Assembly (NCBI RefSeq): GCF_030013595.1
Contig: NZ_CP122768.1
Source: Escherichia coli
Lineage (GTDB): Bacteria > Pseudomonadota > Gammaproteobacteria > Enterobacterales > Enterobacteriaceae
Strand: one strand, 5' to 3'
Length of the DNA: 64,000 bases
In this document: positions 13,664 to 50,342 of the stretch, one piece after another
How positions within the stretch are numbered: the first letter of the stretch is position 1
How the letters are laid out: every line of letters starts with the position of its first letter
The notes under the pieces: generated by a model
Told to the model about the DNA's origin: nothing
The model's input: only the letters and a program-made list of their open reading frames with translations
Databases searched by the model: none
Position numbers and translations under genes: made by a program

Positions 13664-14317
13664 ATGGATATCATTTCTGTCGCCTTAAAGCGTCATTCCA
13701 CTAAGGCATTTGATGCCAGCAAAAAACTAACCCCGGAACAGGCCGAGCAGATCAAAACTCTCCTGCAATACAGCCCATCCAGCACCAACTCCCAGCCGTG
13801 GCATTTTATTGTTGCCAGCACGGAAGAAGGTAAAGCGCGTGTTGCCAAATCCGCTGCCGGTAATTACGTGTTCAACGAGCGTAAAATGCTTGATGCCTCG
13901 CACGTTGTGGTGTTCTGTGCAAAAACCGCGATGGACGATGCCTGGCTGAAGCTGGTTGTTGACCAGGAAGATGCCGATGGCCGCTTTGCCACGCCGGAAG
14001 CGAAAGCCGCGAACGATAAAGGTCGCAAGTTCTTCGCCGATATGCACCGTAAAGATCTGCATGATGATGCAGAGTGGATGGCAAAACAGGTTTATCTCAA
14101 CGTCGGCAACTTCCTGCTCGGCGTGGCGGCGCTGGGTCTGGACGCGGTACCCATCGAAGGTTTTGACGCCGCAATCCTCGATGCAGAATTTGGTCTGAAA
14201 GAGAAAGGCTACACCAGTCTGGTAGTTGTTCCGGTGGGTCATCACAGCGTTGAAGATTTTAACGCTACGCTGCCGAAATCTCGTCTGCCGCAAAACATCA
14301 CCTTAACCGAAGTGTAA
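13664..14317 (+). CDS. nfsB: Oxygen-insensitive NAD(P)H nitroreductase
   Basis: 217-aa [56 protein letters not shown]... Confidence 0.95.
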
Positions 14318-14376
14318 TTCTCTCTTGCCGGGCATCTGCCCGGCTATTTCCCCTCAGATTCTCCTGATTTGCATAA

Positions 14377-15672
<1,296 letters not shown>

Positions 15673-44800: not shown

Positions 44801-45379
44801 CAGCTGGTCTGTGGTGCTGTCCGGCGTCATCCTGCGCATCCGGATACTGAACGGGCGCGGCGGCAGGTTATCCACCACCACCGAGGCCAGATACTGCGAG
44901 GTGGTTTTGCCCTTAATGGTGATGTCTTTTTCCGTCACCCAGCCACCGTTACGTTGTATCTGAACCAGCAGGCGGACTTCCGATGGATTCCTGTCACCCT
45001 TTGAGGTGGTTTCCACCAGTGCCTGCACACCGAAGGTAAAGCGCAGTCGGTCGATGTTTGCCGACGTGATGGCGCGGGTGATCGGCGTGTCGTATTTCAC
45101 TTCCGTACCCAGCACCGTCTCGGAGCCGGAGGATTCAAATCCCTCCGGCGGAGTCTGCTCCTGCTCACCAGCCCGGAACACCACCGTGACACCGGCGATG
45201 TTGGTATTCCCCTCACTGTCCAGCACCGGCGTACTGTTCAGCAGCACGCTTTTTAATCCATCCACCGGACCTTCAATCGGCCCTTCACTGATGGCATCAA
45301 TCACACTCAGCAACTGCGTGGATTTCAGGTTGTCCTTCGCTTCGCGCGGGGTATGCCCCTTACTGCTGCCTTTACCCAT
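41900..45379 (-). CDS. J: Tail tip / host-specificity protein J (central tail fibre)
   Basis: 1159-aa [50 protein letters not shown]... Confidence 0.95.
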
Positions 45380-45439
45380 TCGTCACGCTCCATAAACGAC
45401 AAAACCGCCCGCAGGCGGTTTCACATAAAACATTTTTCA

Positions 45440-46111
45440 TCAGCGACCAATCACCACAACCTGACCACCATCACCTTCATCTGCTGTGCTGATCTCCTGA
45501 GATACCACCCGCGACCCCACACGCATTTCACCGTACAGAACGGGCAGGACATTGCCCTGGGCAACCATATTATCCAGTGAAGAAAAATAGGTGTTCTGTT
45601 TGCCGTTATCCGTTGTCTGTGTGCGGGGGGTTTTGGGTTTAGGGGCCAGCATCTGCGCCACACCACCGAGCACCATACTGGCACCGAGAGAAAACAGGAT
45701 ACCGGTCATACCACCGGCCCCAATGGCTGCCCCCCATGCTGCAAGGGTGGCTCCGGCAGTAAAGAATGATCCGGCAATGGCGGCAGCCCCCAGAACAATC
45801 TGGAATACGCCCCCTGACTTGGCCCCGGCGACTCTGGGAACAATATGAATCACAGCGCCGTCAGGCAGAGTCTCATGTAACTGCGCCGTTAACCCGGACG
45901 TGCTGACGTCCCGCCCGGCAATCCGTACCTGATACCAGCCGTCGCTCAGTTTCTGACGAAACGCCGGGAGCTGTGTGGCCAGTGCGCGGATGGCTTCAGC
46001 CCCCGTTTTCACACGAAGGTCGATGCGGCGGCCAAATCGTTGCAAATCCCCGTAAAGGCAGATGCGTGCCATTCCCGGTGACGCCAGAGGGAGTGTGTGC
46101 GTCGCTGCCAT
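45440..46111 (-). CDS. I: Tail assembly protein I
   Basis: 223-aa ORF MAATHTLPLASPGMARICLYGDLQRFGRRIDLRVKTGAEAIRALATQL...; overlaps the 3' end of K by about 100 nt in another frame. Confidence 0.9.
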   Translation of the reverse strand: MAATHTLPLASPGMARICLYGDLQRFGRRIDLRVKTGAEAIRALATQLPAFRQKLSDGWYQVRIAGRDVSTSGLTAQLHETLPDGAVIHIVPRVAGAKSGGVFQIVLGAAAIAGSFFTAGATLAAWGAAIGAGGMTGILFSLGASMVLGGVAQMLAPKPKTPRTQTTDNGKQNTYFSSLDNMVAQGNVLPVLYGEMRVGSRVVSQEISTADEGDGGQVVVIGR

Positions 46112-46752
46112 TTGTCGGTGTACCTCTCTCGTTTGCTCAGTTGTTCAGGAATATGGTGCAGCAGCTCGCTGTCACCACAGTAAATGGCGGCATGATTCGG
46201 CACCGATGAACCAAAACAGCACAGCAGCACATCGCCCGGCTGCGCCGCTGACAACGGCACCTGATACAGCCCTGTGGCCTCCAGATTATCCAGATAGAGA
46301 TTCTGACCGTTACGCCACCAGTCATCCTCGCGATGAAAATCCGGCATCTCAATCCCCGCCAGATGGTAAGCATCCCGGAACAGCGTGTAACAGTCCGTCA
46401 CCCCGTGCTCAAAGCGCCGCCCGGTGAGATGCGGCACACAGCGGAACTTGTGAATCGCCCCCCGGCAGACCAGCCACCACGGCAAATCACTCTGCACCTG
46501 CAGCCGCCGGTCAGCCTCACTCAGCCAGGGCAGACCACCGGGATGACTGTGGACCAGTGCCACAATCTCACCCTGCATCTCTGCCTGCAGCCAGTCCTCC
46601 GGAGCCATCCGGAAATAATCCTCCGGCTCACCGGAAATATTCACGCAGGGAAAATATCTTTCCCCCTCCGGCGCTCTCACCACGAAGCCGCACGACTCCG
46701 CTGGCGCACATCGCCGGGCGTGCGCCAGAATCGCTGATTCTGTCTCTGTCAT
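46009..46752 (-). CDS. K: Tail tip assembly protein K (MPN/JAMM plus NlpC/P60-like)
   Basis: ORF 46009..46794; start placed at MTETESAILAHARRCAPAESCGFVV...; contains JAMM-like motif HSHPGGLPWLSEAD. A shorter form starting at MAPEDWLQ (46608) would give the 199-aa length I recall for lambda K. Confidence 0.8.
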   Translation of the reverse strand: MTETESAILAHARRCAPAESCGFVVRAPEGERYFPCVNISGEPEDYFRMAPEDWLQAEMQGEIVALVHSHPGGLPWLSEADRRLQVQSDLPWWLVCRGAIHKFRCVPHLTGRRFEHGVTDCYTLFRDAYHLAGIEMPDFHREDDWWRNGQNLYLDNLEATGLYQVPLSAAQPGDVLLCCFGSSVPNHAAIYCGDSELLHHIPEQLSKRERYTDKWQRRTHSLWRHREWHASAFTGICNDLAAASTFV

Positions 46753-46756
46753 GGGA

Positions 46757-47455
46757 TTACTGCGAAAGTTTGTTAATGGAAAGGAAGCCGCCAAAGTTGC
46801 CGACGTTATTGCGAAACTTACAGCCGCTCAGGCATTTGCTGCATTTATCCTTCGTGATATCGGACGTCGGCTGGTCATATTCATCCGCGACTGCCGGACC
46901 GTGATAACCGCACTCATCACCGCGATAGGTCCAGGTGCAGGTGTTGGCCAGCATGATACGTCCCGGAAAAACAGCGCCATCCGTTTCCGTCGGCGTGGAC
47001 AGTACAAAGGAGGCACTCACCGCGCTCAGTTCGCTGCACTGCTCGATGCGCCAGCGGCTGATCACCTCCTGCTCCGGATCGGCGTCACTGTTTCCGTTGA
47101 CGAAGTTCACCGCATCCAGAAAACGGGCGTAAACCTTACGCCGGACCACCGTTCCGCCGACCAGACTCTGCAGATCTTCCGCCATCCCGGTGACCATACC
47201 GTACAGGTTAGAAACCGTCAGCGTGGGGCGCGTACTGGTGCCTTTGCCATTCAGTTCAAAACCACTCCCCTGAATGGGATACGGCTGATACTGTCGCCCC
47301 TGCCAGGTGACCGGCACACCTTTTTCGTTCTGCTCATTACAGAAAAAATAACGTTCTCCACCGACCTCTGTCAGGTCGATTTCCCAGAGCACCACGCTGG
47401 CCGACTGCTCCGCACGGGTGCATTCATTCAGTGTTTCCTGCCGGATATCCTGCAT
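46757..47455 (-). CDS. L: Tail tip protein L
   Basis: 232-aa ORF MQDIRQETLNECTRAEQSASVVLWEIDLTEVGGERYFFCNEQNEKG...; Cys cluster near C-terminus. Confidence 0.95.
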   Translation of the reverse strand: MQDIRQETLNECTRAEQSASVVLWEIDLTEVGGERYFFCNEQNEKGVPVTWQGRQYQPYPIQGSGFELNGKGTSTRPTLTVSNLYGMVTGMAEDLQSLVGGTVVRRKVYARFLDAVNFVNGNSDADPEQEVISRWRIEQCSELSAVSASFVLSTPTETDGAVFPGRIMLANTCTWTYRGDECGYHGPAVADEYDQPTSDITKDKCSKCLSGCKFRNNVGNFGGFLSINKLSQ

Positions 47456-47784
47456 CAGTTCACCACCTGTTCAAACTCTGCGCTGAACTCAACACGCAGC
47501 ATACTGACCCGCGACGACCATTTTGCGCAGGTCACCTTTATCTGCCGCCACTCATAAGGCGGCGTCCACAGAAAGGCTTTCCAGCCCCCGTGCTCTTCCA
47601 GAAACGACTCCAGTACCGTGGCCTCCTCACGGGGGACAGAAAGCGTCACGCTGTACGTTTTCAGGTTGGCATTCAGCCCGGCAGGCGCTCGCTGGGAATA
47701 GCCATCACCAAAGCGCACCTTTCTTACAGAAGGGGCCGAAGCCACATCCATACCGGGTTTCACTTTCCAGCGGAAGGTTTTCAT
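47455..47784 (-). CDS. M: Tail tip protein M
   Basis: 109-aa ORF MKTFRWKVKPGMDVASAPSVRKVRFGDGYSQRAPAGLNANLKTYSV... Confidence 0.95.
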   Translation of the reverse strand: MKTFRWKVKPGMDVASAPSVRKVRFGDGYSQRAPAGLNANLKTYSVTLSVPREEATVLESFLEEHGGWKAFLWTPPYEWRQIKVTCAKWSSRVSMLRVEFSAEFEQVVN

Positions 47785-50342
47785 CGTCCACCTCCGGAGA
47801 ACAGTCCACCATCACGCATCTGTGTCTGAATTTCATCACGGGCACCCTTGCGGGCCATGTCATACACCGCCTTCAGAGCAGCCGGACCTATCTGCCCGTT
47901 CGTGCCGTCGTTGTTAATCACCACATGGTTATTCTGCTCAAACGTCCCGGACGCCTGCGACCGGCTGTCAGCCAGACTGCCCGGTGTACCGACATAACCA
48001 CCGGTGGCATAGCCGCGCATCAGCCGGTAGAGATTCCCCACGCCAATCCGGCTGGTTGCCTCCTTTGTGAAGACAAATTCACCACGGTGAACAATCCCCG
48101 CTGGCTCATATTTGCCGCCGGTTCCCGTAAATCCTCCGGTTGCAAAATGGAATTTCGCCGCAGCGGCCTGAATGGCTGTACCGCCTGACGCGGATGCGCC
48201 GCCACCAACAGCCCCGCCAATAGCGCTGCCGATACTCCCGACAATCCCCACCATTGCCTGCTTAAGCAGAATTTCTGTCATCATGGACAGCACGGAACGG
48301 GTGAAGCTGCGCCAGTTCTGCTCACTGCCGGTCAGCATCGCCGCCATATTCTGTGCAATACCATCAAAGGTCTGCGTGGCTGCACTTTTTACCTGCGACA
48401 TACTGTCCGTGGCGCTCTCTTCCCACTCACTCCAGCCGGACTTCAGGCCTGCCATCCAGCTCCCGCGAAGCTGGTCTTCAGCCGCCCAGGTCTTTTTCTG
48501 CTCTGACATGACGTTATTCAGCGCCAGCGGATTATCGCCATACTGTTCCTTCAGGCGCTGTTCCGTGGCTTCCCGTTCTGCCTGCCGGTCAGTCAGCCCC
48601 CGGCTTTTCGCATCAATGGCGGCCCGTTTTGCCCGTTGCTGCTGTGCGAATTTATCCGCCTGCTGCGCCAGCGCGTTCAGGCGCTCCTGATACGTAACCT
48701 TGTCGCCAAGTGCAGCCAGCTGGAGTTTGTACTCCAGCGTCTCATCTTTATGCGCCAGCAGGGATTTCTCCTGTGCAGACAGCTGGCGACGTTGCGCCGC
48801 CTCCTCCAGTACCGCGAACTGACTCTCCGCCTTCCACAAATCCCGGCGCTGCTGGCTGATTTTCTCATTTGCTCCGGCATGCTTCTCCAGCGTCCGGAGT
48901 TCAGCCTGAAGCGTCAGCAGGGCAGCATGAGCACTGTCTTCCTGACGATCGCCCGCAGACACCTTCACGCCGGACTGTTTCGGCTTTTTCAGCGTCGCTT
49001 CATAGTCCTTTTTCGCCGCCGCCATCAGCGTGTTGTAATCTGCCTGCAGAATTTTCCCGTCCTTCAGTGCCTTGTTCAGTTCTTCCTGACGGGCGGTATA
49101 TTTCTCCAGCGGCGTCTGCAGCCGTTCGTAAGCTTTCTGCGCCTCTTCGGTATATTTCAGCCGTGACGCTTCAGTATCGCTCTGCTGCTGCGCATTTTTG
49201 TCCTGTTGACTCTGCTGTTCAGCCTTCTTTCTCGCGGCTTCAAGCGCAAGACGGGCCTTTTCACGATCATCCCAGTAACGCGCCCGCGCTTCATCGTTAA
49301 CAAAATAATCATCCTTGCGCAGACTCCAGATGTCGTCCGCTTTCTTAAACGCAGCCTCTGCCTTAATCAGCATCTCCTGAGCGGTATCAGGACGACCAAT
49401 ATCCAGCACCGCATCCCACATGGATTTGAATGCCCGCGCTGTCCTGTCTGCCCAGGTCTCCAGCGTACCCATGTTCTCTTTCAGGCGGCGGGTCTGGTCA
49501 TCAAACCCTTTCGTCGCGGCCTCGTTCGCCGCCTGCAATGCCCCGGCTTCATCGCCGGAACGCTGCAACTGAGCAACATACGCAATCTGCTCCGCCGTCA
49601 CGTTATGGAACTGGCGTGCCATCGCTGTCAGCCCTGACGTCGGGTCTGTGGTCAGCTTCCCGAAGGCTTCAGCGACCTTGTCCACCTCCACGCCGGATGC
49701 AGAGGAGAAACGCGCCACACTCTGGCTGATGGATGCAATCTGAGCCTCACCGCTTACTCCCGCCTTAACCAGTGCGCTGAGTGACTCGCTGGTCTGGTTA
49801 AACGTCAGCCCTGCCGCCTGCCCGGCTCTGGACAGGACCAGCATACGATCTGCCGTCAGACCCGACTGATTGCCGGAAAGGACCAGCGTTTTGTTGAAAT
49901 CGGACAGGGTTGAGTTGCCCTGATACCAGGCATACGCCAGCGCACCGGTCGCCACCGCCAGCGAGGTGGCCCCGACCATCGGCAGGGTGATCGCACCGGC
50001 AAGCCCCCTGAACATGGGGATCATCCCGCCGAAGGAGTCCTTCACCTGACCACCCTGTTGCAGCAGGATCAGCCACGGACTTTGCCCGCCTGCAAGCTGC
50101 GTGGCCACGTCGGTGAACTGCGCAGGCAGCATACGCATGGCAGCTTTATACTGCCCGACGGAAATCCCCGCTTTCTGTGCAGCCAGCGCCTGTCGGCTCA
50201 GCGACTGTTCAACGACTGCCGCTGTTTTTTTCGCATCACTTTCCGTACCGGAAAAATGACGCCTGACTCTGGCCATCTGCTCGTCAAATCTGGCCGCATC
50301 CAGACTTAAATCAACGACCAGATCGCCTACCGGTTCAGCCAT
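47781..50342 (-). CDS. H: Tail tape measure protein H
   Basis: 853-aa ORF MAEPVGDLVVDLSLDAARFDEQMARVRRHFSG...; long coiled-coil-like central region. Confidence 0.95.
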   Translation of the reverse strand: MAEPVGDLVVDLSLDAARFDEQMARVRRHFSGTESDAKKTAAVVEQSLSRQALAAQKAGISVGQYKAAMRMLPAQFTDVATQLAGGQSPWLILLQQGGQVKDSFGGMIPMFRGLAGAITLPMVGATSLAVATGALAYAWYQGNSTLSDFNKTLVLSGNQSGLTADRMLVLSRAGQAAGLTFNQTSESLSALVKAGVSGEAQIASISQSVARFSSASGVEVDKVAEAFGKLTTDPTSGLTAMARQFHNVTAEQIAYVAQLQRSGDEAGALQAANEAATKGFDDQTRRLKENMGTLETWADRTARAFKSMWDAVLDIGRPDTAQEMLIKAEAAFKKADDIWSLRKDDYFVNDEARARYWDDREKARLALEAARKKAEQQSQQDKNAQQQSDTEASRLKYTEEAQKAYERLQTPLEKYTARQEELNKALKDGKILQADYNTLMAAAKKDYEATLKKPKQSGVKVSAGDRQEDSAHAALLTLQAELRTLEKHAGANEKISQQRRDLWKAESQFAVLEEAAQRRQLSAQEKSLLAHKDETLEYKLQLAALGDKVTYQERLNALAQQADKFAQQQRAKRAAIDAKSRGLTDRQAEREATEQRLKEQYGDNPLALNNVMSEQKKTWAAEDQLRGSWMAGLKSGWSEWEESATDSMSQVKSAATQTFDGIAQNMAAMLTGSEQNWRSFTRSVLSMMTEILLKQAMVGIVGSIGSAIGGAVGGGASASGGTAIQAAAAKFHFATGGFTGTGGKYEPAGIVHRGEFVFTKEATSRIGVGNLYRLMRGYATGGYVGTPGSLADSRSQASGTFEQNNHVVINNDGTNGQIGPAALKAVYDMARKGARDEIQTQMRDGGLFSGGGR

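What the first reader, a model, noticed from the sequence alone, without database searches (positions are those of the whole stretch)
46009..46794. K reading frame extends well upstream of the short form remembered for lambda
The ORF containing K runs 62 codons upstream of the MAPEDWLQ methionine that would give a 199-aa product. The upstream part (MTETESAILAHARRCAPAESCGFVV...) has the look of the N-terminal strand of an MPN/JAMM domain whose HSHPGG...SEAD motif lies just downstream. The functional protein therefore probably uses the upstream start, leaving only a 5-nt gap after L.
Basis: inference. Interest (0 to 1): 0.3.

Follow-up and report, generated by a model that had tools for sequence, protein, structure and literature searches.

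The report
Full-length lambda-type tail gene K
The prophage's tail-assembly gene K really does start 48 codons upstream of the 199-residue form listed for phage lambda; that short form comes from a one-base omission in the 1982 lambda reference sequence, and most modern annotations already use the long form.

Summary
On the minus strand, an ATG at 46752 lies 4 nt after the stop codon of gene L and opens a 247-codon frame ending at 46009. The 199-aa "lambda" form would start at the ATG at 46608.

The 48 extra residues are an integral part of a JAMM/MPN+ metalloprotease domain. They supply helix 1, strands 1-2 and the catalytic Glu19 of the motif E19...H68-S-H70...S78..D81. They are conserved down to 35% identity, evolve under purifying selection, and are needed for the Pfam Prok-JAB match to pass threshold.

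All 169 related loci that carry an intact gene have this ATG. The internal Met49 is Ile in most distant homologues.

The reason lambda is remembered with a short K is that J02459/NC_001416 lacks one G after position 14266. That breaks the frame 10 nt before the annotated ATG. Five independently sequenced lambda derivatives have the G and an intact 247-aa ORF, and no complete E. coli genome with a match shows the reference version.

PGAP and the phage 434 and 21 records already annotate the long form. RefSeq lambda and Swiss-Prot TIPK_LAMBD still hold the truncated one.

The parts
46009..46752 (-). Gene K, full-length CDS (247 aa, 28.3 kDa; ATG 46752, TGA 46011-46009). It is 96% identical to the 247-aa K of resequenced lambda.
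46438..46752 (-). JAMM/MPN+ (Prok-JAB) metalloprotease domain, residues about 1-105. Catalytic Glu19 is the GAG at 46698-46696. H68, H70, S78 and D81 lie at 46551-46510.
46609..46752 (-). The 48 codons missing from the 199-aa annotation. They encode helix 1, strands 1-2 and Glu19 of the JAMM domain.
46753..46759 (-). L-K junction: the L stop TAA (46759-46757) plus a 4-nt spacer TCCC. There is no Shine-Dalgarno sequence, so initiation is inferred to be coupled to termination of L.
46606..46624 (-). Internal in-frame ATG (Met49, 46608-46606) preceded by GGAGG (46624-46620) at 11-nt spacing. This is the start used in the old lambda annotation. The GGAGG lies in the codons for Pro43-Glu44-Asp45.
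46081..46422 (-). NlpC/P60 (C40) cysteine-peptidase domain, residues 111-224. Conserved Cys121 (46392-46390), His187 (46194-46192) and His199 (46158-46156).
46792..46794 (-). TTG that opens the mechanical ORF inside the end of L. It is present in only about a quarter of relatives (47 of 169 loci) and is not regarded as a start.
46757..47455 (-). Gene L (232 aa), the upstream neighbour.
45440..46111 (-). Gene I (223 aa), the downstream neighbour. It overlaps K by 103 nt in another frame. Its N-terminal ubiquitin-like domain (residues 14-97) is the reported substrate of the K JAMM domain.

Best explanation
Window 46009-46752 (-) is the complete gene K of a lambda-like prophage. It encodes a 247-residue, two-domain peptidase: an N-terminal JAMM/MPN+ zinc isopeptidase domain and a C-terminal NlpC/P60 cysteine peptidase domain.

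Translation starts at ATG 46752, 4 nt after the stop of L. Because no Shine-Dalgarno sequence precedes this ATG, initiation most likely occurs by termination-reinitiation coupling with L (inferred).

The first 48 residues carry the catalytic glutamate and three core secondary-structure elements of the JAMM domain. The 199-aa product would therefore have a dead, incomplete JAMM domain.

From the literature, the JAMM domain cuts the N-terminal ubiquitin-like domain off the neighbouring protein gpI during tail-tip assembly. This was predicted by Iyer et al. 2006 and reported experimentally by the Davidson laboratory in a conference summary.

The 199-aa K of lambda is an annotation artefact. The 1982 reference sequence lacks one G after position 14266, which shifts the upstream 44 codons out of frame.
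For: Shown here:
- Pfam Prok-JAB scores 52.9 bits over profile positions 4-103 of 114 for the long form, against 23.0 bits (below the 25-bit cut-off) for the short form.
- E19, H68, H70, S78 and D81 are conserved in 65-69 of 69 homologues. The mean conservation of residues 7-48 (0.445) is similar to the rest of the domain (0.482).
- 169 of 170 loci have an intact ORF. All 169 have an ATG 18 or 16 codons before the Glu, and in 107 of them it is the only start codon available upstream of the Glu.
- The L-stop to ATG gap is 4-10 nt in 154 of 167 loci. Thirteen loci with a 45-58 nt spacer carry a GGAG or AGGAG motif 6-7 nt before this ATG.
- pN/pS is 0.30 upstream and 0.22 downstream. Third codon positions are the most variable.
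- The AF2 model has pLDDT 96.9. Foldseek hits include PfJAMM1, AMSH, Rpn11, CSN5 and MepS/Spr. PDB profile hits are 2kks, 2kcq and 5lda.
- The lambda reference differs from five resequenced lambdas by one missing G. Only 4 of 122 phage records share the reference version, and no E. coli genome among 3,986 matching records does.
- PGAP and the phage 434, 21 and ev207 records already annotate 744 nt.

From papers:
- TAPK = JAB + NlpC/P60, with predicted cleavage of the gpI ubiquitin-like domain (PMC1779556).
- In virions, gpI is resolved only from residue 101 (PMC11101478). This is directly after Gly100-Gly101 at the end of the ubiquitin-like domain (my count on the window sequence).
Against: - The long start has no recognisable Shine-Dalgarno sequence (0 kcal/mol). 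The internal ATG has GGAGG at -9.5 kcal/mol, so an RBS-only reading favours the short start.
- No proteomic, N-terminal sequencing or ribosome-profiling data for K could be retrieved. gpK was not detected in virions by mass spectrometry (PMC10721106).
- The AF2 model of the short form is still confident (pLDDT 93.5), so structure prediction does not discriminate between the forms.
- The cleavage of gpI by gpK is known to me only from a meeting summary.
Confidence: 0.9

Rival explanations
1. Both forms are made. The 247-aa protein starts at 46752, and a nested 199-aa isoform starts at Met49 (46608) using the internal GGAGG. This would give a JAMM-dead, NlpC/P60-only protein alongside the full enzyme, as with other in-frame nested products of lambda (C/Nu3, S107/S105; from general knowledge).
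For: - GGAGG lies 11 nt upstream of ATG 46608 at -9.5 kcal/mol.
- ATG occupies codon 49 in 105 of 127 unique close relatives.
- Expert annotators marked this site as an RBS in lambda imm434.
- Iyer et al. mention phages whose TAPK has only the NlpC/P60 domain.
Against: - Codon 49 is Ile in 42 of 69 diverse homologues and Met in only 14.
- Among representatives with ATT, ATA, ATC or CTG at codon 49, 8 of 13 still carry a strong SD-like motif. The motif therefore looks like a by-product of the conserved Pro-Glu codons rather than a selected RBS.
- The 11-nt spacing is longer than optimal.
- The local RNA fold is not special (z = -1.0).
Confidence: 0.1
2. Only the short 199-aa protein is made, as annotated in RefSeq lambda and Swiss-Prot, and the upstream open frame is untranslated spacer.
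For: - The RefSeq NC_001416 annotation.
- A strong internal SD.
- The lambda imm434 and DE3 records keep this start.
Against: - The upstream codons are under purifying selection and hold invariant residues, including the JAMM glutamate.
- A 148-nt non-coding gap would be unique to the one sequence that has a frameshift.
- The short form fails the Pfam JAB threshold.
- The reported deubiquitinase-like activity of gpK needs a complete JAMM domain (inference).
Confidence: 0.02
3. Translation starts at the TTG at 46794, giving a 261-aa product that overlaps the last 12 codons of L.
For: It is the first start codon of the mechanical ORF.
Against: - The TTG is present in only about 47 of 169 related loci. 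In most of them the frame is closed or has no start codon there.
- It has no SD (-1.7 kcal/mol).
- Homologues begin within a few residues of Met1.
Confidence: 0.01

Closest known systems
Phage lambda tail tip assembly protein K (gpK; TAPK of Iyer et al. 2006; Swiss-Prot TIPK_LAMBD, AAA96551)
   Same: - 96% identical over 247 residues to K of resequenced lambda.
- Same L-K-I-J gene order.
- Same JAB + NlpC/P60 architecture.
   Different: The database entry for lambda is 199 aa because J02459 lacks one G after position 14266. The window carries the intact frame. The L-K spacer is 4 nt here and 5 nt in lambda.
Archaeal JAMM1 desampylases (Pyrococcus furiosus JAMM1, PDB 5ld9/5lda; Haloferax desampylase, NCBIfam NF041370)
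   Same: - Single-domain-sized MPN+ fold with E...HxH...S..D.
- Foldseek TM (target-normalised) 0.66, rmsd 2.5-2.7 A.
- Profile hit E = 7e-11.
- These enzymes cut ubiquitin-like proteins at their C-terminal glycines, which is the activity proposed for gpK on gpI.
   Different: - Only 21-24% identity.
- The NCBIfam score of 28.6 bits is far below the 130-bit cut-off, so this is not an equivalog.
- gpK is fused to an NlpC/P60 domain and acts in virion assembly.
Eukaryotic JAMM deubiquitinases (Rpn11, CSN5, AMSH)
   Same: Same fold and metal-site motif (PMC300881).
   Different: The eukaryotic enzymes are larger, carry insertions and work within multi-subunit complexes. Identity is 13-22%.
NlpC/P60 (C40) peptidases such as E. 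coli MepS/Spr
   Same: The C-terminal domain has the papain-like fold and a Cys-His-His triad.
   Different: There is no signal peptide or lipobox context. The substrate in gpK is unknown. It is not a demonstrated peptidoglycan hydrolase.

Membership tests
JAMM/MPN+ metalloproteases (Pfam PF14464 Prok-JAB) | Motif E-x(n)-H-S/T-H-x7-S-x2-D | tested here: met
   E19, H68-S69-H70, S78 and D81 are present in the window. They are conserved in 65-69 of 69 homologues. The Glu lies in the 48 upstream codons, so the feature is met only by the long form.
JAMM/MPN+ metalloproteases (Pfam PF14464 Prok-JAB) | Profile score above the curated cut-off over the whole domain | tested here: met
   The long form scores 52.9 bits against a 25-bit cut-off, covering profile positions 4-103 of 114. 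The short form scores 23.0 bits, covers positions 63-103 only, and fails.
JAMM/MPN+ metalloproteases (Pfam PF14464 Prok-JAB) | MPN fold | tested here: met
   The AF2 model has pLDDT 96.9. Foldseek matches 5ld9/5lda, 2kks, AMSH, Rpn11 and CSN5 at probability 1.00.
JAMM/MPN+ metalloproteases (Pfam PF14464 Prok-JAB) | Zinc binding and (iso)peptidase activity | not testable with these tools
NlpC/P60 (peptidase C40, Pfam PF00877) | Profile score above cut-off, and a conserved Cys-His-polar triad | tested here: met
   47.6 bits against a 23-bit cut-off, covering profile positions 1-105 of 105. C121 is conserved in 68/69, H187 in 68/69 and H199 in 69/69. Fold hits include MepS/Spr.
Lambda gpK / TAPK tail-tip assembly proteins | Close sequence identity to lambda K, and a position between L and I-J in a siphovirus tail module | tested here: met
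   96% identity to the 247-aa lambda K. The match to phrog_30 'minor tail protein' has E = 1.7e-162. M, L, K, I and J are in lambda order on the minus strand.
Nested in-frame isoform pairs of lambda (C/Nu3, S107/S105 type) | An internal start codon with an RBS, conserved across relatives | tested here: inconclusive
   ATG plus GGAGG is present in the window and in most close relatives. Codon 49 is Met in only 14 of 69 diverse homologues, and the SD-like motif persists where there is no start codon. No expression data are available.

The most novel reading that the evidence does not exclude
Lambda-type K genes deliberately make two proteins from nested starts. One is the full JAMM + NlpC/P60 enzyme. 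The other is a 199-aa form with a dead JAMM domain, started at Met49 from the internal GGAGG, which modulates or chaperones processing of gpI. If so, the old '199-aa K' would be a real second product rather than only an artefact.
Probability: 0.08. Interest if true: 0.4.

Novelty: already known. Interest (0 to 1): 0.15.

Why it matters
The biology is not new. K as a JAB + NlpC/P60 protein was described in 2003-2006. The long start is what PGAP and several curated phage records already use. [quoted passage not shown]

The practical point concerns curation. The two most-cited records for the model phage, RefSeq NC_001416 and Swiss-Prot TIPK_LAMBD, still give a 199-aa K that lacks the catalytic glutamate, because the 1982 sequence is missing one base. 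Anyone who clones, models or mutates "lambda K" from those records, or transfers annotation from them, gets a truncated and catalytically dead JAMM domain. The lambda imm434 and DE3 records show this transfer: they keep the short start even though their own DNA has the intact frame.

Tried and rejected
- Structure prediction of the short form. AF2 still gives pLDDT 93.5, so it cannot discriminate between the forms.
- RNA structure around the internal SD. A small hairpin is flagged, but the fold is not better than shuffles (z = -1.0).
- Rfam search of 45000-48000 at E <= 1 found nothing.
- The promoter/terminator scan found nothing meaningful at the L-K junction.
- Literature on the reference-sequence error. 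Casjens & Hendrix 2015 and the lambda ribosome-profiling paper (Liu et al. 2013) are not held. Searches for '14266', 'gene K' and NC_001416 gave nothing relevant. Feiss et al. [quoted passage not shown]
- The full text of the phage 434 CDS note ('This start has ...') is cut off by the tool.
- The virion mass-spectrometry table gives one gpI peptide with no position. It therefore cannot show whether the ubiquitin-like domain is absent from virions.
With the 58%-identical homologue P0127 it found nothing.

Full report
WHAT IS THERE

The window carries a lambda-like prophage tail module on the minus strand, in the order H, M, L, K, I, J. The mechanical ORF 46009-46794 (261 aa) opens at a TTG inside the end of L. 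L stops at TAA 46759-46757. An ATG follows at 46752 after a 4-nt spacer (TCCC) and gives a 247-aa product of 28.3 kDa. The ATG at 46608 (MAPEDWLQ) gives 199 aa and 22.9 kDa.

IS THE UPSTREAM PART CODING?

Pfam assigns the long form a complete Prok-JAB domain: residues 4-98, profile positions 4-103 of 114, 52.9 bits against a 25-bit cut-off. It also assigns a complete NlpC/P60 domain. The short form keeps only profile positions 63-103 and falls below threshold at 23.0 bits.

An exhaustive HMMER search found 2,739 relatives. Full-length relatives at 35-50% identity are 230-260 aa long and align from query residues 3-10.

In an alignment of 69 homologues, G22 and N38 are invariant. P17, E19 (68/69), C21 and F47 are at least 90% conserved. 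Mean conservation of residues 7-48 is 0.445, against 0.482 for the rest of the JAB domain. E19 is the glutamate of the JAMM motif E...H68-S-H70...S78..D81, so the catalytic residue sits in the 48 codons that the short annotation omits. Met49 is Met in only 14 of 69 homologues and Ile in 42.

At the DNA level I collected 170 loci: the window, ten GenBank or RefSeq records and 160 IMG/VR loci.
- 169 have JAB and NlpC/P60 in one open frame. The only exception is the lambda reference.
- All 169 have an ATG 18 or 16 codons before the Glu. In 107 of them it is the only start codon in the frame upstream of the Glu.
- The TTG at 46794 has a counterpart in only about 47 of the 169.
- Across 48 representative sequences, pN/pS is 0.30 for codons 2-48 and 0.22 for codons 49-247.
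- Variable sites by codon position in the upstream part are 27, 21 and 44 of 47, the signature of a translated frame.

RIBOSOME-BINDING SITES

This is the one line of evidence that favours the short start. No Shine-Dalgarno pairing is found before 46752. GGAGG (46624-46620) lies 11 nt before ATG 46608, at -9.5 kcal/mol.

The junction statistics explain the missing SD. The L stop lies 4-10 nt before the long ATG in 154 of 167 loci, which is the geometry of termination-reinitiation coupling (inference). In the 13 loci where a 45-58 nt spacer with a hairpin and a T-run has been inserted, a GGAG or AGGAG motif sits 6-7 nt before the same ATG.

The internal GGAGG is made of the conserved Pro43-Glu44 codons. 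It persists in 8 of 13 representatives that have ATT, ATA, ATC or CTG at codon 49, so it looks like a coding by-product. A low level of internal initiation cannot be excluded.

STRUCTURE

AlphaFold2 with the 69-sequence alignment gives pLDDT 96.9 and pTM 0.91. Helix 3-15 and strands 21-27 and 30-36 belong to the first domain. Foldseek against the PDB returns three groups of matches:
- Pyrococcus JAMM1 (5ld9/5lda, rmsd 2.5-2.7 A, target-normalised TM 0.66);
- AMSH, Rpn11 and CSN5;
- NlpC/P60 enzymes (MepS/Spr) for the second domain.

A sequence profile hits the MPN proteins 2kks, 2kcq and 5lda starting at profile positions 2-16. No gpK structure is in the PDB. The short form is still modelled confidently (pLDDT 93.5), so this test does not discriminate between the forms.

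WHY LAMBDA IS REMEMBERED WITH A SHORT K

NC_001416/J02459 annotates K at 14276-14875, leaving a 148-nt gap after L. Aligned with the window, phage 434 and ev207, the reference lacks one base: GAGCCGGAGGC-TATTTCC. In the reference, the ORF from ATG 14133 (MTQTESAILAHARRCAPAESCGFVV...) runs out of frame and stops after 76 codons.

Five independently sequenced lambda derivatives all read GGCGTAT and have a continuous 247-aa ORF:
- lambda imm434, OM418626;
- Lambda, PV340536;
- KT232076;
- Lambda_AGU, LC730321, whose length is 48,503 bp, one base more than the reference;
- DE3, EU078592.

Of 122 phage records matching this 101-nt segment, only four are identical to the reference. These are J02459, its RefSeq copy, an 'UNVERIFIED' engineered strain, and an isolate with reference-identical coordinates. 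The last two were probably derived from the reference. Among 3,986 matching records from complete E. coli genomes, the best identity is 99.0%, corresponding to a single gap. None of them therefore has the reference version.

The missing G falls after position 14266 (my count). I recall seeing '14266 +G' in resequencing reports, but I could not verify that in the held literature. Feiss et al. 2022 state only that hybrid phage sequences show nine differences from the original sequence, present in many laboratory strains (PMC9119081).

STATE OF ANNOTATION

The long start is used by PGAP on E. coli genomes, by RefSeq ev207, by the curated phage 434 and 21 records and by Lambda PV340536. The exact 247-aa lambda protein occurs on at least 1,000 contigs, named 'C40 family peptidase' or 'metal-dependent protease of the PAD1/JAB1 superfamily'.

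The 199-aa form persists in RefSeq lambda and in Swiss-Prot TIPK_LAMBD (AAA96551). By transfer it also persists in DE3 and lambda imm434, although their DNA has the intact frame.

FUNCTION

Lambda K was listed as a JAMM protein in 2003 (PMC300881). Iyer et al. 2006 described TAPK as JAB + NlpC/P60 next to TAPI, which has an N-terminal ubiquitin-like domain ending in glycine. They predicted that the JAB domain releases that domain (PMC1779556).

gpK is not detected in virions (PMC10721106). In virion cryo-EM, gpI is resolved only from residue 101 or 135. In the window's gpI, the ubiquitin-like domain (Pfam residues 14-97) is followed by Gly100-Gly101. [quoted passage not shown] That activity requires a complete JAMM domain, and hence the long form (inference).

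VERDICT

The feature is ordinary and already known.

Noticed in passing
L001 (NC_001416) 954-976 = lambda 14253-14275; corresponds to window 46609-46632 (-): The lambda reference J02459/NC_001416 lacks one G after position 14266 (GGC-TAT against GGCGTAT in five resequenced lambdas). This splits K into a 76-codon out-of-frame ORF plus the annotated 199-aa ORF. RefSeq and Swiss-Prot (TIPK_LAMBD) still carry the truncated protein.
   Followed up: yes
window 45440-46111 (-), alternative start GTG 46012: Gene I has the mirror-image annotation problem. PGAP and several phage records start I at the GTG that overlaps the K stop (190 aa), which cuts the ubiquitin-like domain to Pfam profile positions 26-83 of 83. 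The ATG 103 nt upstream (223 aa; domain at residues 14-97; SD -8.5 kcal/mol) is present in nearly all related loci, whereas the GTG is missing in about 40. K and I therefore overlap by 103 nt in different frames.
   Followed up: partly
window gpI residues 98-102 (KSGGV), about 45808-45822 (-): [quoted passage not shown] One cryo-EM study resolves virion gpI from residue 101 onward (PMC11101478). This fits cleavage at the di-glycine by the K JAMM domain, but a disordered N-terminal domain would look the same.
   Followed up: partly
L-K junction of 13 of the IMG/VR loci L010-L169 (locus ids not recorded; junction sequences): In 13 related loci the L-K junction is widened to 45-58 nt by a GC-rich hairpin followed by a T-run (terminator-like), then a GGAG or AGGAG motif 6-7 nt before the long K start. 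An SD appears exactly where coupling to L is lost. Whether the hairpin terminates transcription in the middle of the tail operon was not examined.
   Followed up: no
L005 (OM418626, lambda imm434) 762-778; L002 (OL657226, phage 434) 800: The same authors' records are inconsistent. Phage 434 and phage 21 K are annotated from the long start. Lambda imm434 K keeps the 199-aa start with an annotated RBS, even though its DNA has the intact 247-codon frame.
   Followed up: yes
proteins P0012, P0016, P0024, P0028, P0036, P0090: The databases contain L-K and K-I 'fusion' proteins of 310-430 aa, carrying PF05100 or PF06805 together with JAB/NlpC. Given the 4-nt L-K spacer and the K/I overlap, these are most likely single-base assembly errors or frameshifts. 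Iyer et al. treated some such fusions as real architectures.
   Followed up: no
window 46620-46637 (-): The internal GGAGG is flanked on both sides by TTTCCGG, which can pair with CCGGAGG, so the SD-like motif could be sequestered in either of two small hairpins. The fold energy of the region is not better than shuffles (z = -1.0).
   Followed up: yes
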